DNA of 64,000 bases, from positions 224,001 through 288,000 of the forward strand of contig CAWHDP010000002.1 of assembly GCA_963828125.1 (NCBI GenBank), written 5' to 3'. The notes under the pieces are model-generated. The model had not been told where the DNA came from. It saw only the letters and a program-made list of their open reading frames with translations, and searched no databases. Source of the DNA: an uncultured Chlamydiae bacterium (lineage in GTDB: Bacteria > Chlamydiota > Chlamydiia > Chlamydiales > SM23-39). The position numbers were made by a program, and so were the translations under genes. Positions 1 to 2,587 of the stretch are shown one piece after another; the first letter of the stretch is position 1; every line of letters begins with the position of its first letter.

Positions 1-83
1 TGAGCAAAAAAGACTTCGAGGCTAGGATCGAAGAATTTTTGCGAACCTATGAGCCTATCCGCAATGTCGAGAGAAAAAGATAA
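1..83 (+). CDS. 3' end of an upstream gene (partial); its C-terminus runs into MITE-A copy 1
   Basis: The frame from nt 3 reads SKKDFEARIEEFLRTYEPIRNVERKR to TAA at 81-83; the last 11 residues are encoded by the repeat element. Confidence 0.5.
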   Translation, partial: SKKDFEARIEEFLRTYEPIRNVERKR

Positions 84-212
84 GAGGAGATTTCGGGATG
101 ATTTTCTTGATTTTTGACGAGAGAATATTCTTGAATATTCTCGAGGAAAAAAGGACGAAAAGCGCCCGAAAGATCCCCAGATTTGTTGCCCCACATTGCG
201 GATAGGCTCATA
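48..212 (-). mobile_element. MITE-A copy 1, 165 bp including terminal TAs
   Basis: Perfect 20-bp terminal inverted repeats TATGAGCCTATCCGCAATGT (48-67 / 193-212) and an internal fold-back (GAGAATATTC-TT-GAATATTCTC at 121-142). About 93% identical to the reverse complement of 2423-2587. Confidence 0.85.
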
Positions 213-386
213 CTGTCCCTAAATTCTCCGCCCGTCTTATACCGATAAATTTCCAAAACGCGCTTGGCAGGCGTTATCCAGTTATATTGAAATAATATTA
301 ATATAGTCTATGTATTATTTTTTGTATTGAGTATATATTTATAAATATAGTACAATATAATAAATAATTTAAATTATAGACGTAAA

Positions 387-2414
387 ATGAATCAAATTAA
401 TACATCACATAAAACCTCAGCAATTGAAAACATAGAACGTAACCCCCAGCCAGAAGTCGCAGAGGCTATTAAGAACATTCGACAAAAGGGTGCCAATATC
501 GCGGCAGTATTTAAATCGTTAAGCCCAAATCTACAGAATAATGTTTCGGTTGCTACTGAGGCAATTCGATATAGTTCGCCGGGTATTGTTCCGAACGTGT
601 TTCAACAATTGTCTTCCCAGATGCAAAATAATATTTCGGTTGCTACTGAGGCAATTCGATATAGTTCGCCGGATATTGTTCCGAACGTGTTTCAACAATT
701 GTCTTCCCAGATGCAAACAAAGTCAATAGCTTTAATTGCCTTAGGAAGAAATAGCGAAGTATATGAGCATCTCCACGCAACATTAAAGACTGATTTAGAT
801 ATTATCCGCCAAGTTTTGGTAAGCTCTACTGGAAAAGCATTTTGTAAACACAACATGCAGGCATTGTCTAAGCATCGAGATTATCGGATGATTGTTGGGT
901 TAGCATTGCAGTCCATTCCCTCAAATGATTCGGATAGGGAGATGCAAAAGATACTCAAGCGACTGGATCAAAACATGCAGAGAGACCCAGTCATTGCGGG
1001 TATTATAAACACAAAAAAGAATCCTCAAAAATTTCAAGAAATGGAAGATAGCAATGCGAAGAAGGTATCTATTGCTATTCAGACGCTTAAAAAGAGTGAG
1101 GATGCGGAGCAAACATTTTTATCATTACCGGCAGAGATTCGAAATCATCCTCAAGTTGTTGTTGAGGTGCTTCGCAGAAGTGGAAATGTAAAAAACACAT
1201 TTTTATCATTACCGGCAGAGATTCGAAATGACTATCGATTTGCCAGCATCGCCATACGGAAAGATTATACGATATATAAAGATCTTTCTCAGGAGTTACA
1301 AGAAAATCCTGTCATGATCGAAACGACCTTGATGGCTTCTAAAGGAAAGGTGTTTTTCACACATCCCAATTCCTGTATGATTAATAATCCGAAGCTACTG
1401 GAATGCGCATGGAATCAGATCCAATCAAACCGAATGGGGCACTTTAGTACGCAACGAACGTTGATATATCAGATGGCAAGTTCAGCGACGAGAGTAAATC
1501 CTATATTTATTCAGTGCCTATTGAAAAACATGAGTGACAGAGATAGGTGGGACCTATACCGTATAAGGGGAGCTCAAGACTTAGCATATGTTGTACCTAT
1601 ATTGGAAGGAAGTAGCTCCTCAAATGCTGTATCGATATTCATTGACACGGGGGGGAGATTAGCCGGCAATAGGGAGGTCATATTACCGCTAGTGGGGCGC
1701 GCTGCTGCACACGCAATTCCTAGGATATGGAAGGAGATAAGCCAAGAAATGCAGGAGGATCCAGAAATTATTATATGTGTATTATCAAAGATGTCAGAAC
1801 TATGCTTTGATCCATATTGCAGAGATGTGATAAATTCGATATCTAAAGATGTATGGAAAGATAAGAACGTGATGATACGTCTATTAGAACGTTCTTCTGG
1901 CGACTGGCCGTGTTTTTCAATAATCGACAAAATGGACGCTCAATTAAAAGACGATATAGATATTTTTAAATTGGCAAGCCCAAAAATATCGTCAGGGAAT
2001 CAACGTCTCCTGTTGAGCAAAACAGGCTCAAAAATAAAGGATAATCGGCAGTTTATTCAATTTTTATTGAGACAATCATTTGACCGTGGGGCAGTACTAT
2101 CGATATTCGAATGGATGTCTCCGAACCTACAGTGTGATCAGGAAGTTGTTTCTTGGTTTGTACAACAAGTCCCCGCCATAATCGAGGAATACGGGTTAAA
2201 AGACAATAAACGTATTGTGCTTGCTTGTGTCGAAAAACAGGGTTTAGCTCTTCAATATGTCGGCCCACTCATGCAGAATGATCCAGATGTGGTTCTTGCT
2301 GCCATCACGCAAAATAGGGCTGCTGCCGCATTTGTCGGCGGAGAGGCGAAGAAAGATCCGAGGGTGTCTGAACTTCTGAAGAGTTTCAATGCCACCAATG
2401 GTTCATCAAGTTAA
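387..2414 (+). CDS. DUF4116-like helical repeat protein (AT-rich accessory gene)
   Basis: 675-aa ORF with repeated 'L..D..vvl.Av..ng.al.y' motifs (e.g. LKDNKRIVLACVEKQGLALQYVGPLMQNDPDVVLAAI) and an AT-rich leader. Confidence 0.75.
   Translation: MNQINTSHKTSAIENIERNPQPEVAEAIKNIRQKGANIAAVFKSLSPNLQNNVSVATEAIRYSSPGIVPNVFQQLSSQMQNNISVATEAIRYSSPDIVPNVFQQLSSQMQTKSIALIALGRNSEVYEHLHATLKTDLDIIRQVLVSSTGKAFCKHNMQALSKHRDYRMIVGLALQSIPSNDSDREMQKILKRLDQNMQRDPVIAGIINTKKNPQKFQEMEDSNAKKVSIAIQTLKKSEDAEQTFLSLPAEIRNHPQVVVEVLRRSGNVKNTFLSLPAEIRNDYRFASIAIRKDYTIYKDLSQELQENPVMIETTLMASKGKVFFTHPNSCMINNPKLLECAWNQIQSNRMGHFSTQRTLIYQMASSATRVNPIFIQCLLKNMSDRDRWDLYRIRGAQDLAYVVPILEGSSSSNAVSIFIDTGGRLAGNREVILPLVGRAAAHAIPRIWKEISQEMQEDPEIIICVLSKMSELCFDPYCRDVINSISKDVWKDKNVMIRLLERSSGDWPCFSIIDKMDAQLKDDIDIFKLASPKISSGNQRLLLSKTGSKIKDNRQFIQFLLRQSFDRGAVLSIFEWMSPNLQCDQEVVSWFVQQVPAIIEEYGLKDNKRIVLACVEKQGLALQYVGPLMQNDPDVVLAAITQNRAAAAFVGGEAKKDPRVSELLKSFNATNGSSS
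534..717 (+). repeat. Intragenic tandem duplication, 2 x 90 bp (30 aa)
   Basis: ATGTTTCGGTTGCTACTGAG... at 541 recurs at 631 almost identically, encoding NN(V/I)SVATEAIRYSSP(G/D)IVPNVFQQLSSQMQ twice. Confidence 0.9.
1113..1229 (+). repeat. Intragenic direct repeat, 33 bp x2 with 84-bp period
   Basis: ACATTTTTATCATTACCGGCAGAGATTCGAAAT at 1113 and 1197 (TFLSLPAEIRN). Confidence 0.85.
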
Positions 2415-2422
2415 GGGCAAGT

Positions 2423-2587
2423 TATGAGCCTATCCGCAATGTGGGGCAAAAAATCTGGGGATCTTTCGGGTGCTTTTTGTCCTTTTTTCCTCGAGAATGT
2501 TCAAGAATCTTCTCTCGTCAAAAATCAAGAAAATCATCCCGAAACCTCCTCCCATTTTTTTCTCCCCACATTGCGGATAGGCTCATA
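2423..2587 (+). mobile_element. MITE-A copy 2, 165 bp, inverted relative to copy 1
   Basis: 24-bp perfect TIRs TATGAGCCTATCCGCAATGTGGGG with TA at both ends; 11 mismatches versus copy 1 by manual alignment. Confidence 0.85.

What the first reader, a model, noticed from the sequence alone, without database searches (positions are those of the whole stretch)
48..2587. Miniature composite transposon: two inverted 165-bp MITEs bracket an AT-rich DUF4116 cargo gene at a CTAG target
Seen: two 165-bp elements (48-212 and 2423-2587), about 93% identical and in opposite orientation, with 20-24-bp TIRs and TA termini. They enclose one AT-rich gene and its promoter, and no transposase. Removing the whole unit and leaving one TA gives ...GCGAACC-TA-GAGGG..., i.e. 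CTAG. This puts a TAG stop right after the upstream gene's ...EFLRT, about 20 bp from the convergent RND stop. Removing each MITE alone gives CTAC and TTAG instead. Known: IS630/Tc1-mariner elements duplicate TA, and IS630 prefers CTAG. Inference: the MITE pair mobilised the cargo as a unit using a transposase in trans, a possible route for spreading repeat/effector genes in this lineage.
Basis: partly seen in the sequence, partly recalled or inferred. Interest (0 to 1): 0.85.

Follow-up and report, generated by a model that had tools for sequence, protein, structure and literature searches.

The report
Two mini-transposons flanking an orphan gene
Two real 159-base miniature transposons of an IS5-type family, which duplicate a 2-base AT target rather than TA, sit on either side of an orphan gene in a chlamydial genome, but they likely landed there separately rather than carrying the gene in as one unit.

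Summary
The inverted pair and the enclosed AT-rich DUF4116 gene are real, but the boundaries and family are wrong. The elements are 159 bp (51-209, 2426-2584), end in GAGCC...GGCTC and duplicate 2 bp, usually AT: 34 of 42 family copies have a direct 2-bp repeat, only 5 fit TA/TA. The matching autonomous element is an 890-bp IS5-family, IS427-like IS (TIR 16/17 identical; 8 copies in G119), not IS630. With AT arithmetic no reconstruction gives CTAG or a stop, so the main argument for unit movement fails. No empty site, donor copy or close cargo homolog was found. The xerD-RND junction takes up unrelated genes in relatives without a MITE pair, and a close inverted pair of the autonomous IS has separate duplications (AC/AC, AT/AT). 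Best reading: two separate or local-hop insertions at an orphan hot spot (0.6); composite movement stays untested (0.22). Side result: 25 of 74 copies sit at a start codon or supply a TGA stop of a conserved gene. New member of a known kind.

The parts
1..83 (+). 3' end of a thioredoxin-like gene (137 aa; starts 331 nt before the window, downstream of xerD); its last 11 codons and stop are read from the duplicated AT and element A
   Evidence: (PF00085 E 2.6e-25)
49..50 (.). left copy of the 2-bp target duplication (AT) of element A
   Evidence: sequence; family duplication pattern
51..209 (+). MITE copy A, 159 bp, ends GAGCC...GGCTC, 17-bp perfect TIR, whole-length imperfect palindrome; 5 private changes against other copies of the genome
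210..211 (.). right copy of the AT duplication of element A
212..386 (+). upstream region of the orphan gene, very AT-rich in its last 110 nt; sigma-70-like match at 327-356 (9 of 12), function not shown
387..2414 (+). orphan gene, 675 aa, GC 0.41, helical-repeat protein with DUF4116; no close homolog found
534..713 (+). two 90-nt in-frame tandem repeats (97% alike) inside the orphan gene
1072..1239 (+). two 84-nt in-frame repeats (70% alike) inside the orphan gene
2205..2318 (+). best DUF4116 match (residues 607-644); a weaker one lies at 1155-1301
2424..2425 (.). left copy of the AT duplication of element B, 9 nt after the orphan's stop
2426..2584 (-). MITE copy B, 159 bp, 148 of 159 identical to A, 21-bp perfect TIR; 5 private changes against other copies
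2585..2586 (.). right copy of the AT duplication of element B
2609..5668 (-). AcrB-type RND gene (1019 aa), convergent; conserved anchor of the locus
   Evidence: (PF00873)

Best explanation
Two 159-bp non-autonomous copies of an IS5-family (IS427-like) element, each with its own 2-bp AT duplication, likely inserted separately, or one as a short local hop of the other, into the only harmless gaps beside an orphan gene that had likely already arrived at the xerD/thioredoxin-RND junction. Shown: element ends, AT duplication, the matching autonomous IS5 element, absence of the gene and of a MITE pair at this junction in the relatives read. Inferred: a transposase in trans recognised the GAGCCTATCCG ends; this genome holds only a cousin IS5 with different TIRs, so the cognate enzyme is probably gone; about 5 private changes per copy mark both as old; the tight bracketing reflects selection against hits in the three genes. 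The pair could in principle move or invert the gene, but nothing shows that it has.
For: Duplication: 34 of 42 two-ended MITE copies have a direct 2-bp repeat (29 AT/AT; TT/TT twice, GT/GT, AA/AA, AC/AC), 5 fit TA/TA. Partner: 890-bp IS with DUF4096 + DDE_Tnp_1, NF033580 best, TIR 16/17 identical to the MITE, 8 copies in G119 with 7 AT/AT and 1 AC/AC; 18 of 20 related autonomous elements have a direct 2-bp repeat. Hot spot: of 20 RND-downstream loci from relatives, 6 have xerD directly facing RND, 3 have other genes between them, none has the cargo or a MITE pair; G011 has xerD-thioredoxin followed by other genes and no MITE end; G013 has one related 171-bp element at a duplication breakpoint at this junction. 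Close pairs arise without unit movement: two inverted autonomous copies 1.2 kb apart in G119 carry AC/AC and AT/AT; the other close pair of this genome (C1:207529 and 209526) is direct with outer flanks CT and GC. With 20 independent remnants a pair within 2.5 kb is expected in 52% of random placements. A and B are no closer to each other (93.1%) than A is to C1:209526 (109 of 117). No second copy of the cargo in the genome. Cargo third-position skew fits long residence on the leading strand (+0.19; likelihood ratio 2.5). Close IS pairs are not enriched across 376 genomes and plasmids (PMC1676026 section 10).
Against: The four longest independent copies of the genome form two close pairs, which random placement rarely gives (P of at least one pair 0.022), so some local process is needed. 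Removing A alone runs the thioredoxin 28 codons into the cargo's upstream region, whereas 7 of 7 closest orthologs stop at this point: the native stop is not recovered. No filled/empty comparison with a close strain was possible; the closest relatives are only about 77% identical in the RND protein. The skew test is weak.
Confidence: 0.6

Rival explanations
1. Composite MITE transposon: the outer ends of A and B were used together by an IS5/IS427-like transposase in trans, and the 2.5-kb unit was inserted at one AT between the thioredoxin and RND genes.
For: Inverted orientation, outer flanks AT/AT, tight bracketing of upstream region plus ORF; cargo absent at this locus in the relatives read; unit removal needs a shorter read-through (15 codons, overlapping the RND end as xerD does in L017 and L019) than removal of A alone (28); long copies cluster; a second inverted pair brackets 610 bp in G112 (L063); MITE-bounded composites are known (PMC13367494 section 14; PMC10969869 passages).
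Against: AT flanks are uninformative, as inner junctions carry them too; no donor or second copy in the genome or in 103 family genomes; no joined form in 4 contig sets, which also do not bridge the elements; the model needs the pair to form by separate insertions somewhere first; the TAG stop is not restored; no cognate transposase in this genome.
Confidence: 0.22
2. The pair marks an inversion: the cargo once lay co-directional with RND, and intramolecular replicative transposition of one MITE, or recombination between two inverted copies, flipped it.
For: Flipping the inner 2.2 kb gives the shortest thioredoxin read-through (6 codons) with a short convergent overlap, like the 20-nt overlap in G011; where an extra gene follows RND in relatives it is nearly always co-directional; IS1248 of the IS427 group forms cointegrates (PMC3281130 passage); segments between opposite IS copies flip (PMC7002104 passage).
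Against: Cargo third-position GC skew (+0.19) is reached by only 1 of 55 low-GC lagging-strand genes, so its present strand looks old; A and B are not a near-identical young pair.
Confidence: 0.13
3. One reading: IS630/Tc1-type MITEs with TA termini that moved the gene into a CTAG target and destroyed a TAG stop.
For: All four junctions read TAT/ATA, TA arithmetic gives an in-frame TAG exactly where orthologs stop (the G011 ortholog ends in TAG); two IS630 matches exist in the genome.
Against: TA/TA in 5 of 42 copies and an offset 2-bp repeat in 7 of 42, which is chance level for the flank composition; identical TIRs belong to an IS5 transposase; the genome's IS630 copies do not carry these ends; in G044 an IS630 lies nested inside a MITE copy.
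Confidence: 0.03

Closest known systems
IS5 family, IS427 group (IS1248, ISPpa2, ISPaes1; PMC3281130 Table 2 and text, passages seen)
   Same: The autonomous partner has about the same size (877-921 bp against 832-865), 17-bp TIRs (12-21 listed), a 2-bp duplication, and two overlapping ORFs with a slippery run.
   Different: The duplicated pair is mostly AT (TA is recalled as typical for the group; the table seen gives length only). No tree with ISfinder references was built. The window holds only the non-coding derivative.
MITE-bounded composites: TIME-COMPs, IMU, Acinetobacter 439-bp MITEs (PMC13367494 abstract and section 14; PMC10969869 passages)
   Same: Two MITEs, direct or inverted, around 1-11 kb of cargo with no transposase inside.
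   Different: Those are diagnosed by 5-6-bp repeats outside the unit, identical MITE copies and the same unit at several sites. Here copies differ by 7%, the 2-bp repeat cannot tell unit from single insertion, and there is one site.
Palindromic bacterial MITEs such as ERIC/IRU, Correia, RUP, QMITE2 (names partly recalled; QMITE2 in PMC10969869 passages)
   Same: About 160 bp, whole-length hairpin, many internally deleted remnants, placed at gene borders, can add codons to gene ends.
   Different: IS5-type GA ends with AT duplication, not TA (recalled for ERIC, Correia, RUP); low copy number per genome.
IS630/Tc1-mariner MITEs
   Same: Short TIR elements; these two copies happen to have TA one base further out.
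   Different: No TA duplication family-wide; partner transposase is IS5-type.

Membership tests
MITE | short (<500 bp), non-coding, with TIRs | tested here: met
   159 bp, 17-21-bp TIR, no transposase
MITE | target-site duplication | tested here: met
   34 of 42 copies with a direct 2-bp repeat
MITE | dispersed copies and an autonomous element with the same ends | tested here: met
   22 of 103 family genomes; 22 remnants in this genome; 890-bp IS with 16/17 TIR identity in G119
IS630/Tc1-mariner derivative | TA duplication | tested here: not met
   5 of 42 MITEs, 3 of 20 autonomous elements
IS630/Tc1-mariner derivative | DDE_3 transposase with the same ends | tested here: not met
   same ends belong to DUF4096 + DDE_Tnp_1; the genome's two DDE_3 loci lack them
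IS5 family (autonomous partner) | IS5-type DDE transposase | tested here: met
   PF13340, PF01609, PF13586; NF033580 best for both ORFs, 65 and 88 bits, each alone under the 110-bit cut-off
IS5 family, IS427 group | about 830-900 bp, 2-bp duplication, two overlapping ORFs with frameshift motif | tested here: met
   890 bp, 8 of 8 with 2-bp repeat, overlapping ORFs, T9 run against PMC3281130
IS5 family, IS427 group | transposase falls inside the IS427 clade | not tested
   no tree with named reference elements was built
MITE-bounded composite transposon | two copies of one MITE around cargo | tested here: met
MITE-bounded composite transposon | duplication outside the unit that differs from the inner flanks | tested here: inconclusive
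   all four junctions are AT, the family's default target
MITE-bounded composite transposon | empty site in a relative, or the same unit at another site | tested here: inconclusive
   none found in 20 RND loci, G011, 103 family genomes or 4 contig sets; no close strain available
MITE-bounded composite transposon | joint movement with a transposase in trans | not testable with these tools
   needs a transposition assay

The most novel reading that the evidence does not exclude
A chlamydia-wide IS5-derived MITE whose AT duplication and GA ends let it enter ATG starts, TGA stops and ATGA stop/start overlaps without breaking either gene, so that it accumulates exactly at gene borders, brackets single genes and moves or flips them as units; this locus would be an orphan repeat gene delivered that way. 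The gene-border placement is observed (25 of 74 copies); the unit movement is not.
Probability: 0.2. Interest if true: 0.6.

Novelty: new member of a known kind. Interest (0 to 1): 0.3.

Why it matters
The finding itself is modest: MITE pairs around a gene are known, and movement is not shown. Its value is a defined MITE/IS pair in environmental chlamydiae (159-165-bp MITE, 890-bp IS5 partner, AT duplication), for which the paper searches made here listed no description; one Rhabdochlamydiaceae genomics paper has no occurrence of 'MITE' or 'IS5'. The ends recreate start and stop codons, which explains why copies survive at gene borders in compact genomes and can mislead gene-end annotation. 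It also shows that a palindromic 2-bp duplication cannot diagnose a composite transposon. If unit movement were shown, it would give obligate intracellular chlamydiae a route for shuffling orphan repeat genes.

Tried and rejected
TA/CTAG reconstruction: reproduced, then rejected on family flanks. IS630 partner: two DDE_3 loci in the genome have other ends; the IS630 between MITE ends in G044 is nested. ISSod11-type 8-bp duplication, suggested by a recalled end motif: no such repeat at A or B. Donor site or paralog of the cargo: none in the genome; only DUF4116-level hits in 23 of 102 other family genomes; 2 distant hits among 7997 scored candidates of 371-1182 aa; atlas hits are generic DUF4116 clusters; NCBIfam none. 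Sequencing runs: 5 listed, no RNA holder listed; 4 of the 5 laid, all contigs, no joints, contigs break inside the elements, so no verdict on excision or inversion. Promoter scan not clearly above shuffles. The direct pair in L103/L134 is a tandem duplication, not a composite. The TSD tally was not used because part of those copies came from a pattern that forces AT. One chance two-ended match (C2:182221) was dropped; Methanosarcina-type loci were left out of both. Look-ups of earlier findings by sequence and by words returned nothing. No structure prediction was run: it would not bear on mobility. Supplementary files were not read; they could hold IS lists for chlamydial genomes.

Full report
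Observation. The window lies at C2:224001-288000 of a 2.37-Mb, two-contig genome. Named records that carry the same element are mostly chlamydial, several labelled Rhabdochlamydiaceae, so the host is inferred to be an environmental chlamydia. Two elements in opposite orientation lie at 48-212 and 2423-2587 and match at 154 of 165 positions. Between them are 175 nt of upstream sequence, a 675-aa ORF (387-2414) with DUF4116 and 9 nt. The ORF has GC 0.41 against 0.49 for the genome; about 5% of long ORFs on C2 are as AT-rich. On the left is a thioredoxin-like gene downstream of xerD, on the right a convergent AcrB-type gene. Element B folds into one long hairpin (z -11.2).

True ends and target. 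At A and B alone, TA and AT duplications cannot be told apart, since the junctions read TAT and ATA. Other copies decide it. A TIR pattern that does not include the flanks occurs in 22 of 103 genomes of the family, and the reversed control in none. Of 45 two-ended copies, 42 had both flanks readable: 34 have a direct 2-bp repeat next to GARCC...GGYTC (29 AT/AT, and TT/TT twice, GT/GT, AA/AA, AC/AC); the other 8 are mismatched; only 5 fit TA/TA. The non-palindromic repeats show a duplication, not a longer TIR. The elements are therefore 159 bp (51-209, 2426-2584; 148 of 159 identical).

The partner transposase. Its TIR matches the MITE at 16 of 17 positions, with no internal similarity. G119 holds 8 near-identical copies, 7 flanked AT/AT and one AC/AC. 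Of 20 such autonomous elements with both ends found, including ones on the Simkania and Neochlamydia plasmids, 18 have a direct 2-bp repeat. Size, 2-bp repeat and two-ORF layout match the IS427 group as tabulated in PMC3281130 (passages); I built no tree. This genome holds only a cousin IS5 (44% and 56% identity in the two ORFs) whose ends share about 9 bases with the MITE; whether it can act on the MITE is unknown. The IS630 copies of the genome have other ends.

The CTAG argument. With one AT left, removing the unit gives a Tyr codon and 15 further codons in all; removing A alone gives 28; flipping the inner segment gives 6; only TA arithmetic gives the stop. A puzzle remains: 7 of the 7 closest thioredoxin orthologs end at this position, so the native stop was lost before or apart from the AT insertion under every model.

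The locus in relatives. I fetched the DNA downstream of the best RND match in 20 genomes; some are short contig ends. Six have xerD directly facing RND, three have other genes between them, one has xerD inverted, and the rest show unrelated genes or end. None matched the cargo or the thioredoxin. G011 has xerD-thioredoxin followed by other genes, with RND on another contig, and no MITE end. One of the 20, G013, has a single related 171-bp element exactly at the breakpoint of a tandem duplication of the RND end and an orphan gene. The junction is thus a hot spot for orphans and rearrangement that does not need a MITE pair. The cargo has no second copy in the genome and only DUF4116-level relatives elsewhere; its role as an effector is untested. 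Four of five listed runs were laid as contigs: no joints, and the contigs break inside the elements.

Is the pairing chance? The genome has 22 remnants, 20 after removing two tandem duplicates. Two pairs lie within 2.5 kb; random placement at intergenic AT sites gives 0.72 on average, at least one in 52% and two in 15% of trials. For the four longest copies alone, both pairs are close, which is unlikely (P of one pair 0.022), so a local process acts. But close pairs occur where unit movement is excluded: two inverted autonomous copies 1.2 kb apart in G119 have AC/AC and AT/AT, and the other pair of this genome is direct with unlike outer flanks. A and B each carry about 5 private changes and are not closer to each other than to other copies. 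An inverted pair around 610 bp in G112 is 160 of 162 identical, as are other copies there. PMC1676026 (abstract and section 10) reports no enrichment of close IS pairs in 376 genomes and plasmids. The cargo's third-position skew fits its present strand (likelihood ratio 2.5), weakly against a recent flip.

Mechanism. Shown: ends, duplication, partner family, absence of cargo and pair in the relatives read. Inferred: separate or local-hop insertions into tolerated gaps beside a resident orphan (0.6); joint transposition (0.22); inversion (0.13); IS630 model (0.03). Known composites bounded by MITEs (PMC13367494, abstract and section 14; PMC10969869, passages) are recognised by 5-6-bp outer repeats and repeated units, which this case lacks.

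Side result. Because the target is AT and the element starts with GA, insertion at an ATG keeps the start, and an in-frame T plus GA makes a TGA stop. Of 75 two-ended copies, 23 abut an ATG opening at least 100 codons and 16 end an ORF by TGA. After dropping one chance match and requiring a homolog in this genome that starts or ends at about the same place, 14 starts and 13 stops remain in 25 of 74 copies. The backgrounds from a rough ORF model of this genome are 7.8% and 1.4% of non-disruptive AT sites; the stop background is too low, as insertions in the last few codons also count, and copies from related genomes are not independent. Selection and target preference are not separated. Element A sits at a gene end but out of the TGA frame and adds 11 codons.

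Literature limits. Searches: (listings only, except where reading is stated). PMC9723776 passages describe IS expansion in Rhabdochlamydia with no occurrence of MITE or IS5. PMC7002104 passages gave the inversion precedent. ISfinder could not be searched, so the IS may already be named there. An earlier scan note assigns another palindromic family of this genome to IS1380; I did not test it.

Verdict. Real MITEs, wrong family and target, composite movement unproven. New member of a known kind; interest 0.3.

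Noticed in passing
family-wide; e.g. L076:2212-2376, L145:2203-2363, L133:2203-2361, L042:1501-1662, G000 C1:359473-359516: MITE copies sit at ATG starts, supply TGA stops, or lie inside ATGA stop/start overlaps, leaving both genes intact (25 of 74 validated).
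   Followed up: partly
G000 C2:442266-443353, C1:17780-18340, C1:20069-20603, C2:1640736-1641861: A cousin IS5 with GARCMTATC ends and AT flanks; several copies have swapped the second transposase ORF for a PD-(D/E)XK (PDDEXK_3) passenger gene inside the element's ends, i.e. gene capture within one element.
   Followed up: partly
L116, L117, L118, L120, L158 (Methanosarcina records): About 130-bp elements with nearly the same TIR (GARCCTATCCGAAAAGT) in methanogenic archaea; no transposase matched in those loci.
   Followed up: partly
L011:4612-4782 (G013): Related 171-bp palindromic element with AA/TT flanks exactly at the breakpoint of a tandem duplication of the RND 3' end and an orphan repeat gene.
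   Followed up: partly
L090:2259-3560 (G044): An IS630 element nested inside a MITE copy; the same site in G045 holds the MITE without it.
   Followed up: yes
L063:3315-4248 (G112): Second inverted MITE pair, opposite polarity, around 610 bp with no clear gene.
   Followed up: partly
G119 C1:497210-500184 (L254, L255): Two inverted copies of the 890-bp IS bracket another IS5-type transposase gene (DDE_Tnp_1_5), with separate duplications AC/AC and AT/AT.
   Followed up: yes
window 13254-13336, 24024-24071, 47851-47898: A second short palindromic repeat family (ends TATACTGCGGCC); an earlier scan note assigns the main palindromic family of this genome to IS1380.
   Followed up: no
G000 C1:366326, C1:416286, C2:879626, C2:1300845; C1:94047-94218, C2:339652-339822: Two further MITE-like families: about 240 bp with GAACCTATCTC ends and AT flanks, and about 170 bp with CTAGCCC ends.
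   Followed up: no
window 50494-50571: Perfect 30-bp inverted repeat with an 18-nt spacer.
   Followed up: no
window 1-83 (gene starts at C2:223670): The thioredoxin-like protein is a 137-aa single-domain form; 6 of the 7 closest orthologs are 250-276 aa with an extra N-terminal domain.
   Followed up: partly
G000 C1:208718-211108 and C1:338936-343696: Tandem duplications of lineage-specific genes that each include a MITE remnant in the repeated unit.
   Followed up: no
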